Source of the DNA: a virus
DNA: 42,816 nt
IMG/VR virus record: IMGVR_UViG_3300045988_147588
Span: 1-42,816 of that record
Reading direction: 5' to 3' (one strand)
The notes below the pieces were generated by a model that saw only the letters and a list, made by a program, of their open reading frames with translations, searched no databases and was not told where the DNA came from. Shown piece by piece: positions 17,801 through 32,200 of this stretch (its first letter is position 1; the number at the start of each line of letters is the position of its first letter). The position numbers and the translations under genes were made by a program.

Positions 17801-18961
17801 ATGATAGATAATTCAGGAATATATGAGAGAAAGTCCAAAGCAGGTATTTCATTACAAATTATCCTTAGATATGGAAAAGGAAAAGATAGAAAATCGTTTA
17901 CCAAAACGATTAAAGTATCAGATTATCCAGATAAGAAAAGCGCATATGTTGTAGCTAGAATGATTAGAGATAAAGCACGTATTGATATTAGTGCTGGTAA
18001 AGCATTAGATAATACTGTGCCTAATGTTAAATGGTTCTTTGAAAAAGAATTAGAGTTATCTGGACTTTCAATTAAAACAAAAGCCAAACATAGAGTGTTA
18101 TACAAATACTCTATTGCACAATTTGAGGATGTTCCATTAAATAAAATTAAGACATCTGACATTCAACAATCAATTGTTGAATTTGCTGAAAATCATTCAA
18201 ATGACAGCATTCAAAGATTGGTTTCTGTATGGAGAGCTATTTACCATGCTGCATTAATGTTAGAGTATGAAATTACTGATAAGACTATAGCATTAAAGAA
18301 TGTTAAGTCTAAAATTGTTTCTATTCCAAGAAGCACAGCAACTGATGTAGAAACATTCAATCTGTTTTGTGATGAATTATTAAAATATAATTCAAAAGAT
18401 GGCGTGCCATGCAAGAGATCTCAAGACATTTGGTATATGCTGCAAATAATGAGATGGACAGGTTGTCGCACAGCAGAAGTGCTGGCACTTAACTGGAATG
18501 ATTTCAACGCAGAAAACAAAACGCTATATATCAATAAAAGTGTTGGTTCAACAGGAACAGAAACAAGAAAAATAATCACTACTAAAACTGTTGAATCAAT
18601 ACGCTATGTACCATGCACAGACGAACTAATAGTCATTTTAAATAGTCTTAGAGATTATTCTAGTTCTTCACCTATGATTATTGAGCAGGATGGAAAACCG
18701 TATGAAATAAACGATGTAAGTAACCATATAATGTTAGTATCAAAGAAATGTGGGATTAAGTTTAACGCTTATATGTTGAGACATTTATTCTCTACTACAC
18801 TATACCGTGAAGGTGTTAATCAAGCTGTTATCCGTGACTTGATGGGACATACTTCTTCCAGTATGACATTAGGCTATGCTAATACATCAGAAGAAGATAG
18901 GAAGAAAGCAATCAATAAAATAAAAGCCGAGGAGAAACAAGAAAATGAAGAAAACAACTAA
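17801..18961 (+). CDS. int: Tyrosine integrase (386 aa)
   Basis: GCRTAEVLAL (Arg), MLRHLFST (HxxR-type), LMGHTSSSMTLGYA (His...Tyr). Full N-terminal arm/core-binding region present. Confidence 0.9.
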   Translation: MIDNSGIYERKSKAGISLQIILRYGKGKDRKSFTKTIKVSDYPDKKSAYVVARMIRDKARIDISAGKALDNTVPNVKWFFEKELELSGLSIKTKAKHRVLYKYSIAQFEDVPLNKIKTSDIQQSIVEFAENHSNDSIQRLVSVWRAIYHAALMLEYEITDKTIALKNVKSKIVSIPRSTATDVETFNLFCDELLKYNSKDGVPCKRSQDIWYMLQIMRWTGCRTAEVLALNWNDFNAENKTLYINKSVGSTGTETRKIITTKTVESIRYVPCTDELIVILNSLRDYSSSSPMIIEQDGKPYEINDVSNHIMLVSKKCGIKFNAYMLRHLFSTTLYREGVNQAVIRDLMGHTSSSMTLGYANTSEEDRKKAINKIKAEEKQENEENN

Positions 18962-19190
18962 AATAACAAGATGGGGAAATTCTCAGGGAATCAGATTACC
19001 TAAAGGTGCTTTAAATTTATTATCTCTAAATATTGGTGATGAATTGTCTATTAGTATTGCGGATGGCAAAATAATTTTATCGTCAGTCAAAAATGAGTTT
19101 AAGTTTTCTGATTTGTTTTCAAATTACATTGGTGAAACAAGGCAAAAAGAATATTGGAACGATTCACCAACAGGAAAAGAGAACATCTAA
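18945..19190 (+). CDS. MazE/AbrB-family antitoxin homolog (81 aa), no adjacent same-strand toxin
   Basis: ITRWGNSQGIRLPKGAL...DGKIILS...FSDLFSNYIGE...EYWNDSPTGKE parallels E. coli MazE as I recall it. Overlaps the int 3' end by 17 nt, with GAGGAG SD. Confidence 0.7.
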   Translation: MKKTTKITRWGNSQGIRLPKGALNLLSLNIGDELSISIADGKIILSSVKNEFKFSDLFSNYIGETRQKEYWNDSPTGKENI

Positions 19191-19200
19191 AGTATAAAAT

Positions 19201-19226
19201 AAAAGCCGACTAGTTGTCGGTTTTTT
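19201..19226. terminator. Bidirectional rho-independent terminator
   Basis: AAAAGCCGAC-TAGTT-GTCGGTTTTT between convergent genes. Confidence 0.8.
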
Positions 19227-19644
19227 ATTGGTTTAAGTTAATTAATTCATCTAAGCTAATATATACAATTTTATTATCTGAAATCTGATTTGTTTCTTGA
19301 TAATGTCTATATTCATCTAATAGATCATAATATAGTCCATCTGTTATAGGCTTTCCTTTTGTAAAGGTATAATCCCCACATTCAATCATAAAAATATTAT
19401 CGAGCTGGGCATAGCAATATTTTGATATACCATCTTTTTCGCTTGGTTTTATCAGCTTATTAGAACGTTTTGCAGAAATATATACTTTATTAGGTTTAAC
19501 CGTATCTAATTGAATCAGTTCAACATACTTTTCTTCAGTGTTAACATCTATAACTATATATTTGTGTTTAACTTCTGATATAGTACCAGGTTCATTATTA
19601 AAACGAATTCTCAGCCAAATTGTATCTTTAATCTTCAACATCAT
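19225..19644 (-). CDS. Putative toxin, MazF/PemK-like N-terminal pattern (139 aa)
   Basis: KDTIWLRIRFNNEPGTISEVKHKYIVIDV resembles GDLIWVDFDPTKGSEQAGHRPAVVL of MazF. Start overlaps the upstream Panacea-domain gene. Confidence 0.4.
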   Translation of the reverse strand: MMLKIKDTIWLRIRFNNEPGTISEVKHKYIVIDVNTEEKYVELIQLDTVKPNKVYISAKRSNKLIKPSEKDGISKYCYAQLDNIFMIECGDYTFTKGKPITDGLYYDLLDEYRHYQETNQISDNKIVYISLDELINLNQ

Positions 19645-20143
19645 CAAAATCACTTTCTGCCGCATCGAACATTAAATACAACAAATCAGCATATTGTTCA
19701 CGATATTCATCTTTTCTTGAAATAGAATCCATGTAATATGATATGCCAGAATTTTTTTCTTTCCACTCATTATCTTCGTGCGATATTTCAATAAGTTCAT
19801 CGACAGAAGCGTCTTTAAACGTATCATAAATCTTATCCAAAAATATTTTTGTCTCTGAATCAATATCTGTTGATAAATTTGATTTCTTCAAGGACATATA
19901 TTTTTTTTGCACATTAAAAGCTACAGCACCATTATCATAAGCTAATAATGTATCTGTAAACAATGGTGTTCCATATTTAGCAAGATGAAGATTTTGTGCT
20001 AAATGTAAATATTTATTTAATCTAGCATTGCCATCATAAAAAGTGTGATTATTTTTTTCGATTAAGTTGTTAGTGAAAACTGTTTTATCTTTATCTTTCG
20101 ATAAAAAATATTTTGCAATTTCCGTCGCAGTATAGTTAGTCAT
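19628..20143 (-). CDS. Panacea-domain (DUF4065, GepA/SocA-like) antitoxin candidate (171 aa)
   Basis: LNKYLHLAQNLHLAKYGTPLFTDTLLAYDNGAV matches the DUF4065 core pattern. ATG at 20143 after AAGGTGGTGA. Confidence 0.65.
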   Translation of the reverse strand: MTNYTATEIAKYFLSKDKDKTVFTNNLIEKNNHTFYDGNARLNKYLHLAQNLHLAKYGTPLFTDTLLAYDNGAVAFNVQKKYMSLKKSNLSTDIDSETKIFLDKIYDTFKDASVDELIEISHEDNEWKEKNSGISYYMDSISRKDEYREQYADLLYLMFDAAESDFDDVED

Positions 20144-20229
20144 ATTTATCACCACCTTTTTGTAATCTAATTATACTATAGCTTAAAAATAAAAAAAGCA
20201 AATAGAAAGTTTAAAAAATATATAAACTT

Positions 20230-20456
20230 TGTTCGCAAAATTATTCGCAAAAATTAAAAAACCGCTTATTTATGCGGTTTTGTTAACTATAATGGTGCGG
20301 ATAACGGGAATAGTTACATTATTTTTAATTTATGCACTTTTAGAGCTTTCTGTGCGATTTCATAGTATTTATGCTGTATTTCGAATAATTCACATTGCAC
20401 TTTAAGCACATTCTAGAGACTTTAATGCGAACAAGATGTTCGCATTTTGTTCGCAT
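20230..20456. other. attP candidate region
   Basis: TTCGCAAAA at 20232-20240 and 20244-20252. TTCGCA at 20439-20444 and 20450-20455, inverted copy at 20426-20431. TGGTGCGGATAACGGGAAT (20293-20311) is the reverse complement of a tRNA-like 3' end ...CCCGTTATCCGCACCA. Confidence 0.4.
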
Positions 20457-20459
20457 TAT

Positions 20460-20873
20460 TTATACTCTAGTAGCATATCTATATGTTTTAATATCTCCAC
20501 CTTCAGAATCAACATCATTTAACCAAAGTTTAGATATTTCAACATATTTTTCAGTGTCATCATTAAACAAATCATGATAATCATTAAACATCATATTCAT
20601 TGTGTAATATCTGGTGGCTAACTTGCAGTTTCCACCAAGTACTTGATCCACTTCATTCATTGTCCATTTTTGTCCATACGGTTTCATTTCATGAACTAGA
20701 TATTCAGCCTTTTCTTTTGATAGAACTTCACCATATATAGTTTCATAAATTTCATCATATAAACAATCATAATCTTCTTTACTTAGTTTCTTGAAATATT
20801 CCTCAACAATTGGAATCCATTGCTTCATAGTTTCAGAAGATTTGGCAGTTTCCATCAATTCGCAAATTAACAT
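20460..20873 (-). CDS. Hypothetical protein (137 aa), last gene of the cargo cluster
   Basis: ORF track. Start overlaps the upstream stop. GGTGA SD. Confidence 0.6.
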   Translation of the reverse strand: MLICELMETAKSSETMKQWIPIVEEYFKKLSKEDYDCLYDEIYETIYGEVLSKEKAEYLVHEMKPYGQKWTMNEVDQVLGGNCKLATRYYTMNMMFNDYHDLFNDDTEKYVEISKLWLNDVDSEGGDIKTYRYATRV

Positions 20874-21277
20874 AGTTTAGTCACCACTACATTAATTGTT
20901 GCTTGAGTTAATTCTACACCAGTATTTACAAATTGAATTGTAGTTGGTGATGAGCAACAACATGTTCCATTATTTCTTGTTGCTTGAACTAAAGTAGTAA
21001 TAGATCCATGAATTCCTTCAGTTGCAACAACTGTTGGAATAGAAATCTTAGATTGAGATTGTTGTACACCATCTTTAGTCATTACAATTTCAATATCGCC
21101 CGCTGCGCCTGGTAAACCGCCTACATTTAGAACGATTTCATAAACACCTGAACAATTTAACTCAATTGATGAAACGCCGCTCAAAATGGCTGTTTTGCCC
21201 TTTTTAAGAGATACGCTATTAAACGGTAAAATTCCATTTGTAGCTATTGTTTGATTTATCGAATAAGCTTCTAACAT
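20867..21277 (-). CDS. C1q/TNF-like (BclA C-terminal-domain-like) protein with CCC motif (136 aa)
   Basis: Beta-rich pattern resembles the exosporium BclA C-terminal domain: GILPFNSV...GVYEIVLNVGG...IEIVMTKDGV...INVVVTKLC. Contains TCCCSSP. Confidence 0.45.
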   Translation of the reverse strand: MLEAYSINQTIATNGILPFNSVSLKKGKTAILSGVSSIELNCSGVYEIVLNVGGLPGAAGDIEIVMTKDGVQQSQSKISIPTVVATEGIHGSITTLVQATRNNGTCCCSSPTTIQFVNTGVELTQATINVVVTKLC

Positions 21278-21342
21278 ATTTTTTTCCTTTCTTTAAAAGA
21301 GAGGCGTTTGCCTCTCTCCTTATCTGGCAAACTTAATTTGCT

Positions 21343-21939
21343 CTAAATATTGTTTGTTCCGCATCCACTGTAGAATGGATTTGCACCGCTACAATAACTT
21401 GTCTGTGTAGGATATCTTACAACTCCTGCCACAGCATTTTGTAATTGCAACGCGTTGATTTGGTTCTGCATATCATTCATTCTGTTTGTTGTGATAGCAT
21501 CAAGAATCTTTTGTGTTTGTGCCACTGTAGTAGCGTTAATGCTAGCAGTATTTAAGCTGGCATTATAATTTACACCATCAATTGCTCTTAGTGTTTCACA
21601 ACAACATCTCTGTTGTTCTGCAAAGCCTTGTTGAATAGTACTCTGAACATCTCTGATTTCTCCTAGATTGTTCATCGCTAAATCTTTCATTTGAGAAATG
21701 ACTTCTGAACCAACTTCCTGAGTTCTTGCCTCAATATCTCTTTGTCCATTTTGGATTGAGTTGAGGTCAATTGCTCTTTGCAAATCGCCTTGTTGCAATC
21801 CGCCACCACCTAATCCAAAGCCATTGCCACCAAATAATAGAATCAATAATGCGAATATCCACATGAATGAACTATCCCATCCATAGCCTGAATCTTTCTG
21901 CATTAAAGCCACATCACTAGCTGTTAAGCCGTTTTCCAT
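21343..21939 (-). CDS. Membrane-anchored Gly-rich / coiled-coil protein with CCC motif (198 aa)
   Basis: FMWIFALLILLFGGNGFGLGGGG transmembrane + Gly segment. Q/N-rich helical region. QQRCCCETL. C-terminal YCSGANPFYSGCG. Confidence 0.6.
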   Translation of the reverse strand: MENGLTASDVALMQKDSGYGWDSSFMWIFALLILLFGGNGFGLGGGGLQQGDLQRAIDLNSIQNGQRDIEARTQEVGSEVISQMKDLAMNNLGEIRDVQSTIQQGFAEQQRCCCETLRAIDGVNYNASLNTASINATTVAQTQKILDAITTNRMNDMQNQINALQLQNAVAGVVRYPTQTSYCSGANPFYSGCGTNNI

Positions 21940-21990
21940 AATTCATCCTTTCTGTGCATTAGCACTTTTATAAATAACTGTCATGACTAG

Positions 21991-22230
21991 TTATTTCCCT
22001 AAAAATTGTCTTATCGTATTGATAGTTGTATCTGCATCTAACCCACGTTGTCTGCACAATGAACGAAATGCATTTTCTGGTGATCCATACTGTTTAATCA
22101 TGTTTTGAACTTGTGGATTATTAATTCTTTCATTCACGAATGTTTGAGGATTTCCAATCCCCTTTAGCATGTTCATCATTGGATTCTGATTTAATGATGT
22201 TTGTGTTAGTTGCTGGAATAGCTTGTTCAT
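21991..22230 (-). CDS. Q/N-rich small protein (79 aa)
   Basis: AAGGAG 7 nt upstream of the ATG at 22230. Starts 101 nt inside the preceding ORF. Confidence 0.55.
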   Translation of the reverse strand: MNKLFQQLTQTSLNQNPMMNMLKGIGNPQTFVNERINNPQVQNMIKQYGSPENAFRSLCRQRGLDADTTINTIRQFLGK

Positions 22231-22510
22231 TCTTCATCTCCTTTAGAATTGCCATCAATTCATTTCTTGTTACATATTGGTTTGGCTGTGGCTGAGGTTC
22301 ATCAATGATTTCTTGATATCTGAATTTTCTCAACGAACACATTCCAATGTTGTCGCATATCTTGATATAAAATAATCCATCGTTTTCACTGTCCAAAAGT
22401 ACAGTGTTGGAATTAGGCGGTAATTGGAAAGCTTTAGCACCTTCGATTCCTTGTACCCAGTTGATTCCATTTTTCTGAGGTTGATATCCTAAAAATCCGT
22501 TATTATACAT
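22130..22510 (-). CDS. Hypothetical protein (126 aa), first gene of the cargo cluster
   Basis: ATG at 22510 (MYNNGFLGYQPQ...) after GAAAGGA. PQPQPNQ linker. Confidence 0.6.
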   Translation of the reverse strand: MYNNGFLGYQPQKNGINWVQGIEGAKAFQLPPNSNTVLLDSENDGLFYIKICDNIGMCSLRKFRYQEIIDEPQPQPNQYVTRNELMAILKEMKNEQAIPATNTNIIKSESNDEHAKGDWKSSNIRE

Positions 22511-22530
22511 AATCTGATATCCTTTCTTCA

Positions 22531-22601
22531 CACTATAATTATCAAAGAAAAGTCGGCTTAAAAAGTATCAATAAAAGTTCAGAAAAGTATCGGAAAAGTA
22601 T
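22531..22601 (-). promoter_or_regulatory. Cargo-cluster promoter region with five phased repeats
   Basis: Minus-strand TATAGT (22531-22536), no good -35. AAAAGT(A/T) copies on the + strand with G at 22551, 22565, 22577, 22587, 22598 (10-14 bp period). Confidence 0.5.
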
Positions 22602-22611
22602 TAAAAACCAT

Positions 22612-22643
22612 AAAAAAAGAGGGTATTGCATTACACAATACCC
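22612..22643 (-). terminator. Rho-independent terminator of the late operon
   Basis: GGGTATTG / CAATACCC stem followed on the minus strand by TCTTTTTTT. Lies 5 nt after the stop of 22648..22914. Confidence 0.8.
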
Positions 22644-22647
22644 AAGT

Positions 22648-22914
22648 TTAATTTTCATCTAAATATGTTTCTTCTACACTATTTTTTCTAGGTGGTAGAA
22701 GAACACTGTATTTTTGAACTTTATCGTACTTTTTCTTTAATCTAGCTATTATTCTTTTAACAGAACTTTCTGACATATGTAATTCGTATGCCTGTTTTGT
22801 AATAGTCCATCCGCTTACTCTTGTACGGATTATCATTTCTTCTGTTTTTGTAAGACAAGCAAGAGATATAAATTCTTCAAGTATGATTTTGTTCCAAGCT
22901 ACTTGCTTACTCAT
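22648..22914 (-). CDS. Small HTH protein, sigma-70 region 4 / LuxR-like (88 aa)
   Basis: LTKTEEMIIRTRVSGWTITKQAYELHMSESSVKRIIARLKKKY. Confidence 0.6.
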   Translation of the reverse strand: MSKQVAWNKIILEEFISLACLTKTEEMIIRTRVSGWTITKQAYELHMSESSVKRIIARLKKKYDKVQKYSVLLPPRKNSVEETYLDEN

Positions 22915-22916
22915 AA

Positions 22917-23291
22917 TTAAAAATCATTTTTACTATATGCCTTCTCGTATACCTTTTTTACATTAGCGATTGCCATCACGGCTTTACTGTTTGGATAATC
23001 AGGGTGCTGTCGGCAGTAGTCTTCATAATAGTCTATCGCGCTGAGGCATTCGTTGAACTCTTCCTCGTCGTGATGAATGCCGTGCTTGATTTCACCGTTA
23101 AATCTCAAAACACAAGCGCGCTTGTTTTCGGCTTTGTTTAAATCAATCTTACTTTCTAAGCTATCTAGCTTCTTTGAAATGTCGTCGACTGAAAACTTCT
23201 TTTCTAGCTTGTTAGCAAGTTTGCCACTACTTATTAGTGCAACTGTAATAGGCACCAACACATTAGTTAATAATACAATCCATGTCTCCAT
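22917..23291 (-). CDS. N-terminally membrane-anchored protein in the lysis cassette (124 aa)
   Basis: METWIVLLTNVLVPITVALISSG transmembrane segment, then a coiled coil. Adjacent to the holin. Confidence 0.55.
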   Translation of the reverse strand: METWIVLLTNVLVPITVALISSGKLANKLEKKFSVDDISKKLDSLESKIDLNKAENKRACVLRFNGEIKHGIHHDEEEFNECLSAIDYYEDYCRQHPDYPNSKAVMAIANVKKVYEKAYSKNDF

Positions 23292-23300
23292 GCCTTGCCG

Positions 23301-23528
23301 TTATTGCTCCTGTTCCTTCTTGTATTTTGAAGAACTATACATTAGGCACGCGCCCAATAAAGTTACGACACCCATAATTGTCGCCGGAATTTTGTCCGCA
23401 AACGGTAAACCCCATATTGCGGCCATTGCTTTGTAAAAAGTTGCAATTGCCGGCAATACGATTGTTGTTAACCATTTCAAAAAATCATAAGTTTCATTGT
23501 TCATTTTAAATGCGATAATTTTTTTCAT
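23301..23528 (-). CDS. Holin (Dp-1 / LL-H-like family, 75 aa)
   Basis: NNETYDFLKWLTTIVLPAIATFYKAMAAIWGLPFADKI...VVTLLGACLMY: two hydrophobic segments. Next to the lysin. Confidence 0.7.
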   Translation of the reverse strand: MKKIIAFKMNNETYDFLKWLTTIVLPAIATFYKAMAAIWGLPFADKIPATIMGVVTLLGACLMYSSSKYKKEQEQ

Positions 23529-23531
23529 TTT

Positions 23532-24959
23532 TCATCCCTCCATGATCTTCTTTATTTCATTTAATTTTTCGTTAGCTTTTTTTAGCTCCTCTTTTACTGC
23601 GTTCAGTTCTGCTTGAAGTTTATCGTATTCAGCTTTTGAAACGGTTTCTTCTGTTGGTTCTGTAGGTTTGCTAGGTTCTGTTGGTTCAGCAACCTTCATC
23701 TTTCCGATTGCTAATACGTTTGGAATATGACGACCTGTGTAAATGATTGATTGCCACTTGCTATCTGTAAACGCCATCATTTGAGTTGAACCACCACTGT
23801 CTACTAAGAATGCATAGTCAGCGTTACAATCTAACGCAAAGTTCTGCATTAGCTTTGGAAGTACTTTGCTAGCAGTACATACAATGCACCATGTATCTTT
23901 AATCTTCATAAACATGGTTTGACTGTTTGCGTAGTTGTCCTTATTGCCAAACGCTGATGAACGATGATTACAAGCTACATGATTAAATACAACTGTAGCG
24001 TATGGTGAACATGCGAAGTTCACATCCGCCTTAGAATACCAATAATCATTAGCGGTACATCTACCACACTCACCATTTTTCAATTCATAGAACACTTCAT
24101 AAGCACCGTTCTTAGGTGCTAGGTCATGTCCTGTAGTGTGTACATCATCACCGATACTTTGCTCAACACCGTAATGTTGACCATATTCTGATTTTGAAGC
24201 CATTTCAAAATAGTTACAATTTGCATCAGCCATGATTAATAAATTACTATGGTCGAATTTTCTAATATCTTGAGTAGCCTTTTCGTTTCCTAAAGCACTA
24301 AGCATGAATAATTTCTTGAATTTGTCATAGCCTTTATAGACTTTCAGATTTGCACCTGAATATGTCAAACTCTGGAATCCATCATTTAAATTCATAATTG
24401 CTTCATCTCCTTTGCATGTAATACCTGAGCAACTTTTCAATGTTGCTCCCTTTGTATTGAGTATTTTCGTAAAACTTGTGTCAACAAACATAACCTCAAG
24501 TGGATTTAATTCGTTGTATAAAGTCCACGTTCCATTTTTAGCCTTGTATCTTTTTCTAACATCGCCTTCAGCAATTTCTAGATGAATGTGATTGCCAGTA
24601 ACTTTACCTTCGTAAGGATATTTAGTTCCTTCTTGATACATCTTTTCATTGTGGTAAAGCCTACCAATTTTATGTTTATTCAAATCGTGTGTTAGCGATA
24701 CTGTTACCACTCTATCCACACCATCTGCACAATGTACCTTAGTAGGATTGCCTTTAGAATCGCATGACAGAAAATGATATGTATTAGTTGCACTACTCCA
24801 ACAACACGTACACTTCCAAAAAGTATCACCTCTGGCATACCAAATGTCTTTTCCTGTATCTCTACCGCCTAAATCAACCGCTTGATTTGCATGAGAATAA
24901 CTTCCACCTGGCAATTGAGTTATGTTTAAATATTCCATTCCAAAACACAAGTTATCCAT
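23532..24959 (-). CDS. Cell-wall hydrolase / lysin (475 aa), multi-domain
   Basis: GNHIHLEI (HxH, M23/LytM-like). FLVDSGGSTQM (phosphodiester-glycosidase/NAGPA-like). PTEPSKPTEPTEE linker and C-terminal coiled coil. Confidence 0.6.
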   Translation of the reverse strand: MDNLCFGMEYLNITQLPGGSYSHANQAVDLGGRDTGKDIWYARGDTFWKCTCCWSSATNTYHFLSCDSKGNPTKVHCADGVDRVVTVSLTHDLNKHKIGRLYHNEKMYQEGTKYPYEGKVTGNHIHLEIAEGDVRKRYKAKNGTWTLYNELNPLEVMFVDTSFTKILNTKGATLKSCSGITCKGDEAIMNLNDGFQSLTYSGANLKVYKGYDKFKKLFMLSALGNEKATQDIRKFDHSNLLIMADANCNYFEMASKSEYGQHYGVEQSIGDDVHTTGHDLAPKNGAYEVFYELKNGECGRCTANDYWYSKADVNFACSPYATVVFNHVACNHRSSAFGNKDNYANSQTMFMKIKDTWCIVCTASKVLPKLMQNFALDCNADYAFLVDSGGSTQMMAFTDSKWQSIIYTGRHIPNVLAIGKMKVAEPTEPSKPTEPTEETVSKAEYDKLQAELNAVKEELKKANEKLNEIKKIMEG

Positions 24960-27246: not shown

Positions 27247-28399
27247 TGTTTGTAATCCTCCAATTTTCTCTGACGATTTGTGTTAATCGTGTTCTTGCCA
27301 TGCCAAAAGTAAGTACCATCGTTTTATCTGTTATTACTTCCTTACTAGTAAGCATTGTGTAGTATCTAGCATCATCTACTATAATTAGATATCTTGTGCC
27401 AATATCGCCAATATAAACTAACTTAGAATCCGTTTTGACTGTCAATTCTAACTCATCATCATAAGATGTTCTTTGCATTGAATCGAAAGCATCTTCTTTG
27501 CACACTTGCTCAAAAGATTTAGCTTCTTGTGTTACTACACCGTCTTTATCTTTCTTTTCTTCAACTGCCTTTTTCTTCTTAAACTTTTTAGAAACAGGCA
27601 ATAATCTTGGTGCTTTTGGTTCTTGATCTACATAACCGCTAAAACCATCTGGATGCCAATAAAATACAAGCATTGGTGTAAGGTTTGCTTTTTCCTCATC
27701 TGTTGCACCTTCTTTGTAATATTCACTATTTAAATAAACTATCTTATTAGGTTTCTTACTGTTAGATGTTTTCATCGAATAATCTAATACATCTGTTTCA
27801 CTTGTATCTATTACCCAAAATTCTTCAGTATCAACTAAGTGAATATCAATTTGAATAGTTTGTGTTTTAGGTACAAACTCCATATCAACAACTAATCCAT
27901 ATACTTTTAAAAACTCAACAGTTAAATCGTAAATGTTGTAAATATCATCATTTGCTACTTCAATATTTCCATTAGTACTTGAATGCTTTGTGATATTCAT
28001 TCCGATAATGTTTTGATAAGTATCGCCACTAGCAAAGATTGCTTTCATTTGTAACTCAAGCCAATCCTCTAACGTCATTTTGTTATCATTGACTTTAGCT
28101 ACCGAACCTAAATCACCATCAAAACAATCCATATCAAGTAATGACTGCAAAGGCAATAAAGTTACCGTTGTGTATGTTTTATCGAACGTATAATCATTTA
28201 TAACACCTTGATAAATTGCTTTTTCATCTAAAAACAAAGTGACTATATCGGTTCTTGATATATCCACTTTGCCTATTAGAGTTATTTTAGTTTTTTCTTG
28301 TGATATATAATCGTAGACAAGATTATCTACTTTTATTACTTCTTTATATTCTTTATATTCTAATGTTCTACTGAATACTGTTACACTATACCGTTTCAT
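27233..28399 (-). CDS. Tail/baseplate protein (Siphovirus Gp37-like, 388 aa)
   Basis: ATG at 28399 (MKRYSVTVF...) after GAGGAAG. Follows Dit. Confidence 0.6.
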   Translation of the reverse strand: MKRYSVTVFSRTLEYKEYKEVIKVDNLVYDYISQEKTKITLIGKVDISRTDIVTLFLDEKAIYQGVINDYTFDKTYTTVTLLPLQSLLDMDCFDGDLGSVAKVNDNKMTLEDWLELQMKAIFASGDTYQNIIGMNITKHSSTNGNIEVANDDIYNIYDLTVEFLKVYGLVVDMEFVPKTQTIQIDIHLVDTEEFWVIDTSETDVLDYSMKTSNSKKPNKIVYLNSEYYKEGATDEEKANLTPMLVFYWHPDGFSGYVDQEPKAPRLLPVSKKFKKKKAVEEKKDKDGVVTQEAKSFEQVCKEDAFDSMQRTSYDDELELTVKTDSKLVYIGDIGTRYLIIVDDARYYTMLTSKEVITDKTMVLTFGMARTRLTQIVRENWRITNNESN

Positions 28400-29216
28400 A
28401 GACTTCCTCAATTTCTAAAATTGCATTAATTTTATTTCCTGATGTTTCAGTAACTCTAAGCATTGATTCACCTGTAGGAATTACAATAAAAGCTTTATTG
28501 TCAAAATCTATTTTCTGATATAAGTTTTGATACAGCGTATCATCAAGCGTATATTCAGCGATTTCTCTTTCGTTGTCATTAGAATTAATAATCAGTTTGT
28601 GGTTCGACGGTATTTCTACATTCAAACCATTCTTGATCAGCGTTTTTCCATTTTGAGATAAAACCCAATTTGGATTAACGCAGTTTCCAAATAAAGTTAA
28701 TATGCTCGGACATTCTTCTGTACCTTCATTGATAATTCTAAATTCACCACTTGCTGTTTCAACATAAGTATAACCATATGAATAGTTATACTTCTTTATA
28801 TTAGTTGAATCTTCTGTGGCAGTCATTGCTCTTCTAGGAATATACCATTTACTTAATGCAGTAAAATCAATCGCACATGTCAGTAAGCTTGTAGAAGAAC
28901 TAATCTCGCTTTTATCAAGTCGTGTAACAGTACATTTCAGATATGCCCATTCATCTAAAGGTTTATAAGCTAGTTTCAAAGGTTTATATGAGATAAACTT
29001 TGTAAACTCTTTATATTGCTTGTACCCTTTAAAAATCATCTCTCCTGTTACAGCTTTTTGTGATGATTTTTCTTCTGTAATTTCATAGACAGTTCCAATA
29101 TTTGCATATGAATTATCCATTGAAAAACCTAAGCCATCTGGAGAGTTAAAAAAAGCATCTAGGCGCATGAGATTAAACTCTGCGCCTGTGCTATTAATTA
29201 ATTTGAACTGCCTCAT
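28386..29216 (-). CDS. Distal tail protein (Dit)
   Basis: MRQFKLINSTGAEFNLMRL...SPDGLGF N-terminus is typical of Sipho_tail proteins. Lies immediately after the tape measure gene. Confidence 0.75.
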   Translation of the reverse strand: MRQFKLINSTGAEFNLMRLDAFFNSPDGLGFSMDNSYANIGTVYEITEEKSSQKAVTGEMIFKGYKQYKEFTKFISYKPLKLAYKPLDEWAYLKCTVTRLDKSEISSSTSLLTCAIDFTALSKWYIPRRAMTATEDSTNIKKYNYSYGYTYVETASGEFRIINEGTEECPSILTLFGNCVNPNWVLSQNGKTLIKNGLNVEIPSNHKLIINSNDNEREIAEYTLDDTLYQNLYQKIDFDNKAFIVIPTGESMLRVTETSGNKINAILEIEEVYETV

Positions 29217-32200
29217 TAGATTGCACCTCCGAGCAGTCTATCCAAATCACGTGCAACGGATAATCCATCACGTTTTGAATAATTTCCATTAAATGTCAGA
29301 TTTTGTGTTATTTGATGACTTGAGCCACCGCCAAATAATCCAGATACTGCATTTGAGCCATAAATCATATTATCTATAACAGATTTAGAAACATTTTTAG
29401 CCATATCACCTACTGCATCCATTTTCGCCTTTAATCCAACGATTAATCCATCATCCCAAAACATACCTATTTCTTTAGCTAGTTTTGAAGGAGAATTAAC
29501 CTTCATTGAACCTCTTGTTGCTGAATCAATATATCTTCCAACTGAATCAGCTGCACTTTTTACTGCCGCTAATTTTTCTTGGTCTTTTAATCCAGCAATC
29601 AATCCATCTAGCCAATATGATGTAATTTGTTTACCACTATCAAAATTAATAATTTCTTTAGCAGCATTTACCGTCAAATTACTATCTTGATATGTTTCTG
29701 GAACAATATCTTCCGTGAAACCTCTGTTAATTTCTTCTGTTGCTGAATCAGTAAATGGCGTAATAATTTGTGTTCCGCTTGATTGTGCTGCACCAACTAA
29801 ATCTGGATCAATACCTATTTCAGATAATGGACTTAAAATATTTTGTTTCCAAGTATCAACTGTACTTGTTCCAGAATCAGCTATATTTTGATTCACACCA
29901 GCAAGAGATTCATCTATTTGATATCCGATTGCATGTGCTACTTCAGCTGCTTCATTAGTTGAAGTTTCTAAATCGGTATGAATTACTACTCTATTATTTG
30001 GGTCAGCTGTATATCCTTGCAGTTCTGTTATTTGATTAATAACTTCATCTTTTGCCTGTTTAAGCAAATCTGCAACACCTGCATTTTCTGGGTCTACCAT
30101 TTCTTTAAGCAACGCATCGTATGCAGTCCATAATGAGGCTATTTGTTCTTCAGTTGTTAAAGCTGAATTTTCTATTCCATTTGAGAATTCATAGAACTTT
30201 TGAATTGCACCTTCTAAATCACCACTATTAGCAAGATCAATGCTTTCTTCAATGTTTCTCATCACTGAATATGCACTTGCTAACGAATCAGTAACTTTAT
30301 TTAATTCTGTTTGAGCACTTGAGATAGATGTGCCAAACATATTATCAAATATTCCAGCATGTTCTTTGACAAATTCTTCTTTGTCTTCTTGTGCCATATT
30401 AGAGAATTCTTCAAAGCCAACACCATATGCTGCTTTTAAGCCATCCCAATAAGCACTTATCATATCTCCAGCTTTACCAGCTGTGATTTCTATAGTTGCA
30501 TCATCACCAAAATATTTTGATAATTCTTCATTTACTTCTTTTGAAGCAACAGAAATATTAGATTTAGCTTCCGCAAGTTGCTGATACACTTCAGTTAGTT
30601 GCTCATTTAAATTGCCTACAAATTTAGATTTAGTTTGTTCTTCAACTGACTTATGAATAGATGAAGTCAATTCATCATATTTATCAATAACGCCATCAAC
30701 TAAGTTATATTCAATGCCATACGCATTTGATAGTTCACTGAGAATGTACTTAACTCTATCTTCCATTCCATCTTTGACTTTACCATTTGTGTCTACCAAG
30801 CTATCTAATTCATCAATTAATAGTTGACTGCTAGTTAAACTTTCATAGCTGCTTTGAGCACTTTCTGATAGTGATTCCTTAGTAGAATCAATAGATTCAT
30901 TTAACTCATCATATGCATCTCTCAATGCCATTATTTGAGGATGTTCATCTTCCCATTTTGCTTTAGCAATCTCTACAGCTCCTTTCAAAGCTGAATAAAG
31001 TACAATAAGTCCTGAGATAGCAATTCCTGCGCCGCCAAATGCAGTAGTTAAAGTTAATGTTCCAGAATTTAATTCATCAAATACAGCTTTAAGTGCTAAA
31101 GCACCACTGGTAATTTTATCAAATGATGATTTTGCTTTGTTTGCAACCACCATTGATATCATTGTTCTACCGATTGCAGTAAATCCAGCAGACACTTCAT
31201 TTAAGTGTGGCGCTAATGCTTTTAAAGTTTTTGTTAAACCATCAAATATACTTCCAATTTGTTTTCCAAATCTCTTTACAAATAAATTAGCTTCTTTTGT
31301 CTGTAAGAATGAAGTTAACGTTTGAGCCGATTCTCTAAGTGAAGGAGAAACCGACTGATATAAAGTAATACTTAAATCTTCAAAAGTATTATTCAATTTT
31401 TGAGCATCACCATACAAGTTATCTAATCTTTCATTTGCAACTTGTTCTACTGTGCCACTTGCATTAGCTATTTTATTTCCAAGATTTTCCCAATCTTCAG
31501 CACTTGTATTAACAATTGCTGTTAATGCAGTTAATCCTCTTGTACCAGTAACTGTATAAGCAAGTTGAGCTTGTTCTTGAGTGCTCATTCCTTTCATTAC
31601 ATCACGTAATTTAGATAATGTTTCACTTAAATCATTAGCACGACCTTTTGAGTCAAAGAAATGAACGCCTAATTCTTCAAGAACATCATTAGCTTTGCTG
31701 ACATTAGCTGAAATTCGTGTAAGCATAGTTCTTAAAGCAGTACCTGCTTGAGAACCTTTAACACCTTGAGTTGCCATTGTTCCTAATGCCTGTGCTACAT
31801 CTTCTACAGAATAGCCAAATGAACCAGCAACAGATCCAGCATATTTCATTGCCTCACCTAAATCAGTGACATTAGTATTAGTACTTAACGCAGCTTTAGC
31901 AAGTACATCAGAAAAATGTGTTGCTTGACTTGATTTCATACCAAATTCAGCTAATCCATCAACGACAATATCAGACATTGTATTGAATTCTTCACCCATG
32001 CCTTCAGCTAATTGAAGAATAGGTTTAATTGCATTAGATGTTTGTTCAGCATTATAGCCTGCTAAAGCTAACGCTTTAGAAGCATTATTTATTTTTGTAG
32101 CAGAATTTTCACTATTTAATCCTAATGAACGGAATTTATCTTCTAATGAGTTAAATTCAGAACTCGAAACATCACCATACATGGCTTTTAAACTGCTTGA

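What the first reader, a model, noticed from the sequence alone, without database searches (positions are those of the whole stretch)
20460..22615. Separately promoted 5-gene cargo cluster encoding Cys-triplet, Gly-rich membrane and C1q/BclA-CTD-like proteins
A strong terminator (22612-22643) ends the late operon. A new unit then starts with a TATAGT -10 box, no recognisable -35 box and five phased AAAAGT(A/T) repeats (22546-22601), which implies activator dependence.

Genes of the cluster:
- 22130..22510
- 21991..22230 (Q/N-rich)
- 21343..21939 (TM-GGNGFGLGGGG, coiled coil, QQRCCCETL)
- 20867..21277 (beta-rich, BclA-CTD/C1q-like, TCCCSSP)
- 20460..20873

An internal hairpin lies at 21298-21317.

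Two proteins share a CCC motif, and the composition recalls spore-coat or exosporium proteins (Cys-rich, Q/N-rich, TNF-like). This is not a standard phage module. It may be a lysogenic-conversion or late surface-remodelling system located next to attP.
Basis: partly seen in the sequence, partly recalled or inferred. Interest (0 to 1): 0.7.

Follow-up and report, generated by a model that had tools for sequence, protein, structure and literature searches.

The report
Widespread phage stalk-and-head accessory cassette
The five genes are real and, together with the neighbouring small regulator gene, form a mobile, self-contained module found at the end of the lysis region of very many gut-bacterial viruses. 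It encodes a membrane-anchored rod-like protein and a fast-evolving C1q/TNF-like head protein. Its function is uncharacterised, but it more likely acts at the bacterial envelope than in spores or in the virus particle.

Summary
In detail: five ORFs, terminator, five ACTTTT repeats, −10-like box, internal hairpin and Cys triplets are all at the stated coordinates.

The unit is larger than reported. The 88-aa HTH gene (22648-22914) belongs to it: HTH homologs sit just upstream of g1 in 32 loci, and sequence identity to sister phages jumps from ~55% to >90% exactly at its start.

The cassette order is HTH – terminator – g1 – g2 – g3 – terminator-like hairpin – g4 – g5. It recurs in >50 loci from sipho- and myovirus-type prophages of gut/rumen Firmicutes, almost always right after the lysis genes whatever the lysin type.
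- g3 (1,656 clusters at 50% identity): TM helix plus one long helix.
- g4: BclA_C (C1q/TNF-like) protein and the hypervariable gene of the cassette.
- g1: novel small β domain.

None matches a virion, lysis or defence family.

The spore-coat reading, the ACTTTT–HTH link and a functional link between the two CCC motifs lack comparative support.

Best reading (confidence 0.4): a moron-like accessory module building a membrane-anchored stalk with a variable recognition head at the cell envelope. Rivals are a late, lysis-released cargo, a spore-surface role or a virion fibre. Function is untested.

The parts
22648..22914 (-). hth88: 88-aa stand-alone sigma-70-region-4/LuxR-GerE-type HTH, the cassette's regulator gene. 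It starts 2 nt after the stop of the upstream TM-protein gene and has no Shine-Dalgarno of its own.
   Evidence: Weak region-4/GerE/HTH hits, all below curated cut-offs: Pfam E about 0.01-0.02; NCBIfam PRK06930 'positive control sigma-like factor' 7e-5. An HTH profile finds a small HTH ORF within 450 nt upstream of g1 (g3 where g1 was not detected) on the same strand in 32 loci, and all 44 hits lie upstream. DNA identity to L007-L009 rises from about 0.55 to above 0.9 at its start. The protein is 100% identical in 10 sister loci.
22612..22643 (-). T1: intrinsic terminator between the HTH gene and g1.
   Evidence: Found by the terminator scan. -12.5 kcal/mol, z = -3.9. A canonical terminator lies within 200 nt upstream of g1 in 27 of 52 distinct loci, against about 8-10% expected.
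22600..22615 (-). Position homologous to the conserved terminator-abutting TG/-10 promoter element of related cassettes. It is weak here (TTTTATGGT / TTTAAT).
   Evidence: A TG-extended -10-like element lies within 30 nt after T1 in 13 of 31 cases, against 39 of 475 for other terminators; Fisher p = 1.7e-6.
22548..22599 (-). Five ACTTTT direct repeats (AAAAGT on the + strand), spaced 10-13 bp.
   Evidence: Four adjacent pairs against 0.09 expected, and unique in the window. Present only in the window and L007-L009. As RNA the region is unstructured, z = 0.
22532..22543 (-). Overlapping -10-like hexamers GATAAT (22543-22538) and TATAGT (22537-22532), with no -35 match. With GATAAT and a 17-nt spacer, repeat copy 4 occupies the -35 position.
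   Evidence: Read directly from the sequence. Not reported by the two-hexamer scan because there is no -35.
22130..22510 (-). g1: 126-aa conserved core protein (phrog_21718) with a small five-stranded beta domain followed by a helix.
   Evidence: PHROG hit 3e-13. 283 homolog clusters. 22 invariant columns in 36 sequences. AF2 pLDDT 62 overall, 70-80 in the beta domain. No PDB fold match with E below 0.5; the only viral matches are uncharacterised gut phage proteins.
21991..22230 (-). g2: 79-aa Q/N-rich protein. It overlaps the g1 3' end by 101 nt in another frame and has its own AAGGAG Shine-Dalgarno.
   Evidence: ORF and sequence. Homologs at the same position in L007-L012 and many genome loci.
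21343..21939 (-). g3: 198-aa membrane protein (phrog_16490). It has an acidic N-tail, a TM helix plus Gly-rich linker, one long helix (about residues 53-170) carrying the CCC motif, and a conserved C-terminus (GVVRYP...NPF...CG).
   Evidence: PHROG hit 1e-10. 4,554 clusters at 90% identity and 1,656 at 50% identity. Alignment A2. AF2 gives TM 26-37 plus helix 53-170 at pLDDT 53. Kyte-Doolittle score 1.89 for the best 18-aa window. The central region is swapped between sister phages while both termini stay identical.
21295..21341 (-). g3-g4 spacer: small post-stop hairpin (21341-21327) plus terminator-like hairpin T2 (21320-21295), ending 18 nt before the g4 start codon.
   Evidence: -20.4 kcal/mol, z = -4.7. 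A canonical terminator lies within 150 nt after g3 in 47 of 88 distinct loci, against 8.3% of control ORFs. 39 of 46 g3-g4 spacers fold at -8 kcal/mol or better.
20867..21277 (-). g4: 136-aa BclA_C (C1q/TNF-like) protein. The N-terminus (MLEAYS) and C-terminus (VTKLC) are conserved and the body is hypervariable.
   Evidence: 24 of 36 family members hit PF18573, best E 8e-13. The family profile's top PDB hits are BclA, E = 0.006. Alignment A1. DNA identity to L007-L009 drops to 0.45-0.75 only across this gene. Two allele classes about 60% identical occur in phages with an identical HTH.
20460..20873 (-). g5: 137-aa DUF7841 protein, translationally coupled to g4 (7-nt overlap). An optional cassette member.
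   Evidence: PF25223 hit 5.6e-11, above the cut-off. Present in L007-L011 and L102-L110 and in some distant loci, absent from L001-L004 and L094.
20258..20458 (-). 3' end of the unit: a 16-bp hairpin (20458-20423) with no T-tail on this strand, then a canonical terminator (20281-20258), inside a repeat-rich non-coding gap.

Best explanation
The locus is a mobile, moron-like accessory cassette of temperate gut-Firmicute phages.

Layout:
- a small region-4/GerE-type HTH regulator gene
- a terminator
- the cassette's own promoter region
- a conserved core: g1 (novel beta-domain protein), g2 (small Q/N-rich protein) and g3
- an attenuating terminator-like hairpin
- g4, then g5 (DUF7841)

Proposed mechanism:
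1. g3 inserts in the cytoplasmic membrane through its N-terminal TM/Gly-rich segment.
2. g3 forms an oligomeric, probably trimeric, helical stalk whose length and central sequence can be exchanged.
3. The separately encoded C1q/TNF-like trimer g4 docks on the conserved C-terminal end of g3 through its own conserved N- and C-terminal strands. In BclA these strands lie at the base of the trimer.
4. g4's hypervariable body provides ligand specificity.
5. g1, g2 and g5 are conserved cytoplasmic partners or assembly factors.

The complex would act at the host cell envelope as a recognition or exclusion device that benefits the prophage, for example by excluding superinfecting phages or masking a receptor.

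Shown here: gene content, synteny, mobility, terminator bracketing, fold class of g4, TM segment of g3, and the pattern of variability.

Inferred: oligomeric state, g3-g4 docking, site of action, timing and biological role.
For: - Real and widespread: 4,554 clusters at 90% identity and 1,656 at 50% for g3, plus 283 for g1.
- Conserved order g1-(g2)-g3-g4-(g5) on one strand in more than 50 of 93 loci.
- An HTH gene lies immediately upstream in 32 loci.
- Module boundaries: identity to sister phages jumps at the HTH start and stays at 0.85 or above through g3, and is high again in g5.
- Mobility: the same cassette follows five different endolysin types and several holin families, in sipho- and myovirus-type prophages, beside tyrosine or serine integrases or host genes, and once inside a head operon.
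- Moron architecture: terminator upstream of g1 in 27 of 52 loci and downstream of g3 in 47 of 88, against 8.3% for control ORFs. A TG-extended -10 abuts the upstream terminator in 13 of 31 cases against 39 of 475, p = 1.7e-6.
- g3: conserved TM segment, mean Kyte-Doolittle score 1.74 over 86 homologs. A single predicted long helix. Length ranges from 183 to about 310 aa, with variation concentrated in the centre and both termini conserved.
- g4: BclA_C fold class. It is the hypervariable island of the cassette, with invariant terminal motifs.
- No match to virion, lysis or defence families.
Against: - g4, g1, g2 and g5 have no signal peptide or lipobox, so an extracellular head needs an unexplained export route, or the whole complex faces the cytoplasm.
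- g3 topology is unresolved. The canonical acidic N-tail suggests N-out/C-in, while two atypical variants suggest C-out.
- The HTH gene has no Shine-Dalgarno of its own and starts 2 nt after the upstream lysis-region gene, so it should be made late.
- In the L010 lineage there is no HTH, terminator or promoter room; g1 starts 34 nt after the preceding gene. Both points favour late lytic rather than lysogenic expression.
- g1 and the g3 termini are far more conserved than known exclusion proteins usually are (this comparison is from my own knowledge).
- No g3-g4 fusion was found in the fetched loci, and the deep g3 search showed no informative domain fusions that would prove they form one unit.
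- g3 central alleles and g4 alleles assort independently.
- There is no PADLOC hit and no experimental or expression data of any kind.
Confidence: 0.4

Rival explanations
1. Late-lytic, lysis-linked module. The cassette is transcribed at the very end of the lytic cycle and works with or after lysis. The HTH protein, made from the lysis transcript, would switch on g1-g5. Alternatively late transcription reads through T1 and T2. g3 could be a membrane accessory of lysis, with an i-spanin-like layout. The signal-peptide-less g4 could be cargo released through holin lesions or by lysis, for example a lectin-like protein that coats debris or neighbouring cells.
For: - The cassette is almost always immediately downstream of holin/endolysin genes on the same strand, including in phages where it is followed by early genes rather than an att site.
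- The HTH gene is coupled to the lysis-region gene by a 2-nt gap and has no Shine-Dalgarno.
- The L010 lineage has no separate terminator or promoter.
- T2 sits 15-30 nt before the g4 ribosome-binding site, so g4 needs read-through.
- No signal peptides on g1, g2, g4 or g5.
- g3 has a TM segment, a long helix and cysteines.
Against: - The cassette is independent of lysin and holin type and is absent from most phages, so it is not needed for lysis.
- Most hosts are monoderm, where no third lysis step is known (own knowledge).
- No lipoprotein partner exists.
- A terminator plus an activator-independent extended -10 promoter in front of g1 is the signature of an independently expressed moron.
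- Hypervariability of g4 is not expected for a lysis accessory.
Confidence: 0.25
2. Spore-surface conversion. In sporulating lysogens the cassette would be expressed in the mother cell under the GerE-like HTH and add Cys/Gly/Q-N-rich proteins and a BclA_C head to the coat or exosporium.
For: - g4 belongs to the BclA_C family.
- Composition: Cys-rich, Gly-rich and Q/N-rich proteins, with extremely Cys/Gly-rich tails in long g3 variants.
- No signal peptides, as for mother-cell-made coat proteins.
- The regulator has the stand-alone GerE/region-4 architecture.
- Most hosts belong to Clostridia.
Against: - No collagen-like GXY repeats and no exosporium leader (TIGR03720 not hit).
- No DUF4183/Ena-type partner like those in the appendage systems read in PMC12357932.
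- The cassette occurs on 100-120 kb contigs of Bulleidia and Mogibacterium, in Ruminococcus flavefaciens FD-1, and in contigs binned to Atopobium, Treponema and Bacteroidota. I know these taxa as non-sporulating, though binning can err.
- The conserved promoter element is of the sigma-A extended -10 type, not sigma-K/E-like.
- The HTH gene is coupled to lysis genes.
- The cassette tracks the lysis module, not sporulation genes.
Confidence: 0.1
3. Virion appendage. g3 (stalk) and g4 (knob) would form a head or tail fibre or decoration added to particles of different morphotypes, with g1 as adaptor or chaperone.
For: - The stalk-plus-TNF-like-knob logic resembles viral spikes (own knowledge).
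- A variable knob is typical of receptor-binding proteins.
- In Dulem virus 35 the cassette lies between the minor and major capsid protein genes.
- One outlier protein joins a tape-measure-like N-terminus to the g3 C-terminal half.
- The cassette occurs in sipho- and myovirus-type prophages, and the viral-library fold neighbours of g1 come from uncultured phages labelled Siphoviridae, Myoviridae and Podoviridae.
Against: - A conserved TM segment is unusual for an external virion fibre.
- The cassette sits outside the structural module in all but one genome.
- Terminators before g1 and g4 argue against high-copy structural expression.
- No similarity to any PHROG structural family.
- No BclA_C-like domain in the tail proteins of the window or the loci.
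- The tape-measure fusion is a single sequence and may be a chimera.
Confidence: 0.1

Closest known systems
Morons of temperate phages (e.g. lambda bor/lom, HK97 gp15), as reviewed in PMC3594210
   Same: It is an independent unit inserted in or at the end of a late operon. It is bracketed by terminators and has its own promoter-like element. It is found in otherwise unrelated phages and absent from others, sits at the prophage end next to att, and includes a membrane protein.
   Different: It has five to six genes with a dedicated regulator gene and an internal attenuating terminator, rather than one gene. Expression from the repressed prophage has not been shown. In one lineage it lacks its own terminator and promoter.
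BclA and related exosporium/appendage proteins with a C1q/TNF-like C-terminal domain (PF18573; PDB 1WCK, 3TWI; F-BclA in PMC12357932)
   Same: g4 belongs to the same domain family. The logic of a trimeric head carried on a fibrous stalk is similar.
   Different: There is no collagen-like stalk and no exosporium leader. The head is a separate 136-aa protein. The putative stalk is an alpha-helical membrane protein encoded by another gene. The genes are phage-borne and follow lysis genes.
Holin/endolysin-linked cargo loci with a dedicated sigma-like regulator (C. difficile PaLoc TcdR-TcdE, C. perfringens UviA/UviB-BCN5; holin-dependent 'type 10' secretion) - comparison from my own knowledge
   Same: It lies next to holin and peptidoglycan-hydrolase genes. 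The cargo proteins have no signal peptides. The regulator is small and sigma-related.
   Different: The regulator has only a region-4-like HTH of 88 aa, not a full group-5 sigma factor. The cargo is unrelated to these toxins or bacteriocins. The holin and lysin here belong to a complete prophage. No secretion has been shown.
Two-component spanins (Rz/Rz1)
   Same: The position is just downstream of the endolysin. g3 has an N-terminal TM segment, a long helical domain and cysteines, like an i-spanin. The g1/g2 pair overlaps.
   Different: There is no lipoprotein partner. Hosts are mostly monoderm. There is no sequence similarity. The cassette is accessory, not universal.
Xpf / 'positive control sigma-like factor' (PRK06930) and GerE-type stand-alone HTH regulators
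   Same: hth88 aligns to the region-4 end of PRK06930 (E = 7e-5) and weakly to Sigma70_r4_2 and GerE. It is a small stand-alone HTH placed in front of the genes it presumably controls.
   Different: All hits are below curated cut-offs. Region 2 is absent. The binding site is unknown, and the ACTTTT array is not conserved with the protein.

Membership tests
BclA-type exosporium collagen-like glycoproteins | C-terminal C1q/TNF-like BclA_C domain (PF18573) | tested here: met
   The window protein itself is below the Pfam threshold. However, 24 of 36 aligned homologs hit PF18573, best E 8e-13, and the family profile's best PDB hits are BclA chains, E = 0.006-0.03.
BclA-type exosporium collagen-like glycoproteins | Collagen-like GXY repeat stalk in the same polypeptide | tested here: not met
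   g4 is 136 aa and consists of the head domain only. No GXY repeats occur in any cassette protein.
BclA-type exosporium collagen-like glycoproteins | N-terminal exosporium leader (TIGR03720) for docking to ExsF/BxpB | tested here: not met
   The NCBIfam scan of g1-g5 gave no such hit. The features of the leader were taken from PMC12357932.
BclA-type exosporium collagen-like glycoproteins | Mother-cell, sporulation-specific expression and location on the spore surface | not testable with these tools
   No expression or localisation data are available. The conserved promoter element looks like a sigma-A extended -10.
Moron (independent transcription unit in a prophage) | Flanked by transcription terminators | tested here: met
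   Window: T1 at 22643-22612 and a terminator at 20281-20258. Relatives: 27 of 52 upstream of g1 and 47 of 88 downstream of g3, against 8.3% for controls.
Moron (independent transcription unit in a prophage) | Own promoter | tested here: inconclusive
   Relatives carry a TG-extended -10 abutting T1 (13 of 31 against 39 of 475, p = 1.7e-6). The window has only weak -10-like hexamers and no -35. The L010 lineage has no room for a promoter.
Moron (independent transcription unit in a prophage) | Patchy distribution and mosaic boundaries among otherwise unrelated or related phages | tested here: met
   The same cassette occurs behind five lysin types, in sipho- and myovirus-type prophages, and at different integration sites. 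A sharp identity step lies at the HTH start.
Moron (independent transcription unit in a prophage) | Expressed from the repressed prophage | not testable with these tools
   This needs transcriptomics of a lysogen.
Two-component spanin | i-spanin: N-terminal TM segment plus periplasmic coiled coil, encoded next to the endolysin | tested here: inconclusive
   g3 has the layout and the position, but its topology is unresolved and there is no sequence similarity to any lysis PHROG.
Two-component spanin | o-spanin: small outer-membrane lipoprotein with a lipobox | tested here: not met
   No lipobox or signal peptide in g1, g2, g4 or g5.
Holin-dependent cargo loci with a TcdR-family sigma factor | Group-5 sigma factor with regions 2 and 4 | tested here: not met
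   hth88 has 88 aa and only a region-4-like HTH. The longer homologs are ORF run-ons or unrelated fusions.
Holin-dependent cargo loci with a TcdR-family sigma factor | Cargo without signal peptide encoded beside holin and peptidoglycan hydrolase | tested here: met
   A Dp-1 holin and a lysin-like gene lie directly upstream. The hydrophobicity and lipobox check was negative for g1, g2, g4 and g5. This was a simple check, not a dedicated predictor.
Known prophage superinfection-exclusion / defence proteins | Sequence membership in a described defence or exclusion family | tested here: not met
   PADLOC gave no significant hit. The PHROG families hit are of unknown function.

The most novel reading that the evidence does not exclude
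The cassette encodes a previously unrecognised, self-regulated envelope apparatus of gut phages. It would consist of a membrane-anchored helical stalk (g3) with an exchangeable shaft, a separately encoded hypervariable C1q/TNF-like head (g4), and dedicated conserved partners (g1, g2, g5). That would make it a new class of phage-encoded cell-surface recognition or exclusion system, carried by a large share of temperate phages of human and animal gut Firmicutes.
Probability: 0.3. Interest if true: 0.8.

Novelty: new variant of a known kind. Interest (0 to 1): 0.58.

Why it matters
Temperate phages of Lachnospiraceae, Oscillospiraceae and related gut bacteria are abundant and almost entirely uncharacterised. 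This cassette is among their commoner accessory modules. The exact 88-aa regulator of this window alone is indexed in 478 blocks of the assembly collection. The g3 family has 1,656 clusters at 50% identity, and every copy is annotated as hypothetical.

A hypervariable C1q/TNF-like head sitting inside an otherwise near-identical module suggests an ongoing arms race at a recognition interface. The opponent could be other phages, host receptors or the animal host. That would make the cassette relevant to phage-phage competition, lysogen fitness and strain-level ecology in the gut.

The conserved regulatory grammar is HTH gene, terminator, abutting extended -10, core genes, attenuating terminator, variable gene. 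It is a testable model for how such modules are insulated from, or tied to, the late operon. If the function turns out to be ordinary, such as a minor lysis helper, the value is mainly in annotating thousands of genes.

Tried and rejected
- DNA-level relatives in the phage collection: none. Protein-level hits came only from uncultured faecal phages. No plasmid copies.
- Sequence search of solved structures for g1 and g3 gave only chance or generic hits (calbindin helices; FtsB TM plus coil).
- The AF2 monomer model of g3 is too poor for a fold search (pLDDT 53).
- Fold search of g1 gave nothing significant in the PDB and only uncharacterised homologs in the viral library.
- F-ENA/Ena spore-appendage analogy: rejected, because there are no collagen repeats, DUF4183 or leader.
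- Receptor-decoy idea, with g4 resembling the phage's own receptor-binding protein: there is no second BclA_C-like domain in the window or in large ORFs of the loci.
- Transcription-attenuation model, in which the post-stop hairpin competes with T2: complementarity beat shuffles in only 7 of 41 loci, so it is not established.
- Conservation of the ACTTTT array with the HTH protein: not found outside the closest relatives.
- Full-length sigma versions of the regulator: artefacts or unrelated fusions.
- g3-g4 or g1-g3 domain fusions: none in the loci. The deep search found only one tape-measure/g3 chimera-like outlier.
- Rfam families in the spacers: none.
- tRNA at the att site in the window: none.
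- Host identification through source names: none given.
- Literature searches for BclA_C with phage, DUF7841, and C1q-like/prophage/lysis terms found no description of this module.

Full report
CONTEXT

The window is a low-GC (about 32%) temperate siphovirus-type genome.

On the minus strand the late genes run in this order:
- terminase (about 41.6 kb)
- tape measure (29216-33874) and Dit (28386-29216)
- a 475-aa lysin-like gene (23532-24959)
- a Dp-1-type holin (23301-23528)
- a 124-aa TM protein (22917-23291)
- an 88-aa HTH protein (22648-22914)
- the five ORFs of the finding

Beyond them lie a repeat-rich 300-bp gap, a SocA/Panacea-type pair (19225-20155), and on the other strand a MazE-like gene, a tyrosine integrase (17801-18961) and a cI-like repressor.

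OBSERVATION

- The five ORFs.
- The terminator: stem 22643-22621 plus T-tract, -12.5 kcal/mol, z = -3.9.
- Five ACTTTT copies on the coding strand, spaced 10-13 bp. That gives four adjacent pairs against 0.09 expected, and the array is unique in the window.
- TATAGT at 22537-22532 with no -35.
- The g3-g4 hairpin. The full stem runs 21320-21295, with a second small hairpin at 21341-21327; z = -4.7.
- The two Cys triplets.

g2 overlaps the end of g1 by 101 nt and has its own AAGGAG. g5 overlaps g4 by 7 nt. All five ORFs have conserved homologs.

WHAT THE PROTEINS ARE

g4:
- Its relatives carry PF18573 (BclA_C). 24 of 36 aligned members hit it, and the family profile's best PDB matches are BclA chains.
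- It is a 136-aa head-only protein, with no collagen repeats and no exosporium leader.

g3 (phrog_16490, no Pfam):
- It has an acidic tail of about 24 aa, a TM helix followed by a Gly-rich linker, one very long predicted helix, an almost invariant CCC...RAIDGVNYN block and a conserved C-terminus.
- The family is large: 4,554 clusters at 90% identity and 1,656 at 50% identity. Almost all are stand-alone proteins of 180-235 aa.
- Distant members reach about 310 aa and are extremely Cys- and Gly-rich.

g1 (phrog_21718):
- It has 22 invariant columns and is predicted as a small five-stranded beta domain plus a helix.
- It has no significant fold match in the PDB. Its only viral matches are uncharacterised gut phage proteins.

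Others:
- g5 is DUF7841.
- Nothing matches virion, lysis or defence families.
- Only g3 has a hydrophobic segment. g1, g2, g4 and g5 have no signal peptide or lipobox.

THE UNIT IS A CONSERVED, MOBILE CASSETTE THAT INCLUDES THE HTH GENE

Synteny: the order g1-(g2)-g3-g4-(g5) on one strand recurs in more than 50 of 93 loci.

Taxonomic spread: the genome loci come from Lachnospiraceae, Oscillospiraceae, Ruminococcus, Christensenellales, Mogibacterium, Bulleidia and others. Some contigs are binned to Atopobium, Treponema and Bacteroidota.

Position:
- The cassette nearly always follows the lysis genes.
- It does so behind Amidase_2, Amidase_3, GH25, M15, M23, glucosaminidase, PGRP or lysozyme-type lysins and several holin families.
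- It does so in siphovirus-type and myovirus-type prophages.
- It does so next to tyrosine or serine integrases, host genes or early genes.
- The exception is Dulem virus 35, a temperate phage in which the cassette lies between the minor and major capsid genes.

The HTH gene belongs to the cassette:
- An iterated HTH profile finds a small HTH ORF within 450 nt upstream of g1 (g3 where g1 was not detected) in 32 loci, against 55 loci with g1 and enough upstream sequence. All 44 hits are upstream and on the same strand.
- In Dulem virus 35 the same junction (HTH gene, 14-bp terminator, TGCGAAAAT, g1) is present inside the head operon.
- Against sister phages L007-L009, DNA identity is about 0.5-0.7 upstream of 22940. 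It is 0.85-1.0 from the HTH start through g3, 0.45-0.75 across the g3-g4 spacer and g4, and 0.93-0.98 in g5.

The module therefore starts at the HTH gene, and g4 is a hypervariable island inside it.

VARIABILITY WITHIN ONE LINEAGE (ten loci with an identical HTH protein)
- g5 is about 99% conserved and g1 about 94%.
- g4 falls into two allele classes about 60% identical.
- g3 comes in two forms with identical N- and C-termini but a replaced central 90-residue segment. One of these forms lacks the CCC motif.
- The g3 and g4 alleles assort independently.

This argues against a specific functional pairing of the two CCC motifs. It fits a stalk whose shaft can be exchanged and a head that diversifies.

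REGULATORY GRAMMAR
- A canonical terminator lies within 200 nt upstream of g1 in 27 of 52 distinct loci, and within 150 nt downstream of g3 in 47 of 88. The control is 8.3% for other ORFs.
- The second terminator usually ends 15-30 nt before the g4 ribosome-binding site, leaving no room for a promoter. g4 and g5 therefore depend on read-through.
- Directly after the first terminator many lineages have a TG-extended -10-like element: 13 of 31 against 39 of 475 for other terminators, p = 1.7e-6.
- In the window this position is weak. The ACTTTT array occurs only in the window and its closest relatives.
- The array could hold binding sites for the HTH protein. It could be operator sites downstream of a T1-proximal start. 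It could also be phased A-tracts that bend DNA; that last option is from my own knowledge. The comparative data do not decide.

Timing is unresolved:
- The HTH gene has no Shine-Dalgarno and starts 2 nt after the upstream lysis-region gene, so it should be made late.
- The L010 lineage has no HTH, no terminator and a 34-nt gap before g1.
- These two points favour late expression. The terminator-plus-extended -10 layout favours independent, possibly lysogenic, expression.

INTERPRETATION

The best-supported description is a moron-like accessory cassette with its own regulator.

For mechanism I commit, at 0.4, to the following model:
- g3 is a membrane-anchored helical stalk.
- g4 is a separately encoded, variable C1q/TNF-like head that docks through its conserved termini.
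- The complex acts at the envelope as a recognition or exclusion device.

The main weaknesses are the lack of an export signal on g4, the unresolved topology of g3 and the hints of late expression.

Rivals:
- A late, lysis-linked cargo or accessory (0.25).
The defining BclA features are absent, and hosts I know as non-sporulating carry the cassette.
- A virion fibre (0.1).

Literature searches found no description of the module. Source databases call every copy hypothetical.

VERDICT

It is partly unsupported on three points: the spore link, the role of the ACTTTT repeats as activator sites, and the CCC link. The cassette is a widespread, uncharacterised variant of the moron theme. I rate it moderately interesting, and more so if the stalk-and-head envelope model proves correct.

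Noticed in passing
window 19225-20155 (-) and 18945-19190 (+): A SocA/Panacea-domain antitoxin-like gene (19628-20155, PF13274 2e-11) overlaps a 146-aa ORF with no family hit, which may be its toxin. On the other strand a MazE/AbrB-like 81-aa gene overlaps the 3' end of the integrase gene. Both look like further accessory cargo beside the att region.
   Followed up: partly
window 20156-20459: This 300-bp non-coding gap has four TGCGAA(C/T)A repeats, two AAAGTGCA repeats, a 16-bp hairpin (20458-20423) and a terminator (20281-20258). It is probably the attP region with integrase arm sites. No tRNA is present in the window.
   Followed up: partly
window 23532-24959 (-): The 475-aa 'lysin' upstream of the holin has no solid Pfam domain. 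It gives only phrog_11037 (7e-9) at the N-terminus, a weak NAGPA match and a C-terminal coiled coil. Homologs of 480-490 aa occupy the same place in all sister phages, and one carries Amidase_2 (L103). It may be an unusual endolysin.
   Followed up: no
window 21327-21341; same position in L005, L010, L029, L031, L037, L041, L056 and others: A small stem-loop lies right after the g3 stop codon, with apparently compensatory stem changes between lineages (GCGTA/TACGC, GCATA/TATGC, GCAAA/TTTGC, GCTGA/TCAGC, CGCC/GGCG). The 28 nt after g3 are more structured than after other ORFs (-4.8 vs -2.8 kcal/mol, p = 1.6e-9). Complementarity to the downstream terminator, which an attenuator would need, beat shuffles in only 7 of 41 loci.
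   Followed up: partly
L019, L020, L042, L044, L051 (just downstream of g3): A divergent clade shares a conserved non-coding block after g3 (TTCCCTT..AAGGTGAT..TTCCGTCTT..AAGACGTTGACA, then a terminator). No Rfam family matches. It could be a structured RNA, or a promoter together with a ribosome-binding site.
   Followed up: no
L098 2520-3068, L100 7577-8128, L074 4254-4955: Homing-endonuclease genes (HNH, and a GIY-YIG-like ORF) are inserted inside or at the edge of the cassette in several phages. That fits a recombination hot spot.
   Followed up: no
P0413 (387 aa, deep-search outlier): One protein joins a tape-measure-like N-terminal domain to the C-terminal half of g3 (the CCC block through GVVRYP). 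It is either an assembly chimera or a hint that the g3 C-terminal module can be used in a virion protein.
   Followed up: no
L106 and L110 (same 52.5-kb contig of GCA_948242675.1): Two related copies of the lysis region plus cassette lie on one contig, each with the identical HTH protein but different holins and g3 alleles. This could be polylysogeny or tandem prophages.
   Followed up: no
L020 4881-12446: In a contig binned to Bacteroidaceae (GC 48%) the cassette lies in an island of about 7 kb between glycosyltransferase/radical-SAM genes and a tyrosine integrase next to a tRNA. No lysis or structural genes were seen in the fetched stretch, so this may be a remnant or a satellite-like element.
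   Followed up: partly
window 22917-23291 (-): The 124-aa TM protein between holin and HTH (phrog_37604, 3e-26) is much more variable between sister phages than the cassette (about 60% identity, several length variants). The recombination junction lies exactly at its stop codon.
   Followed up: partly
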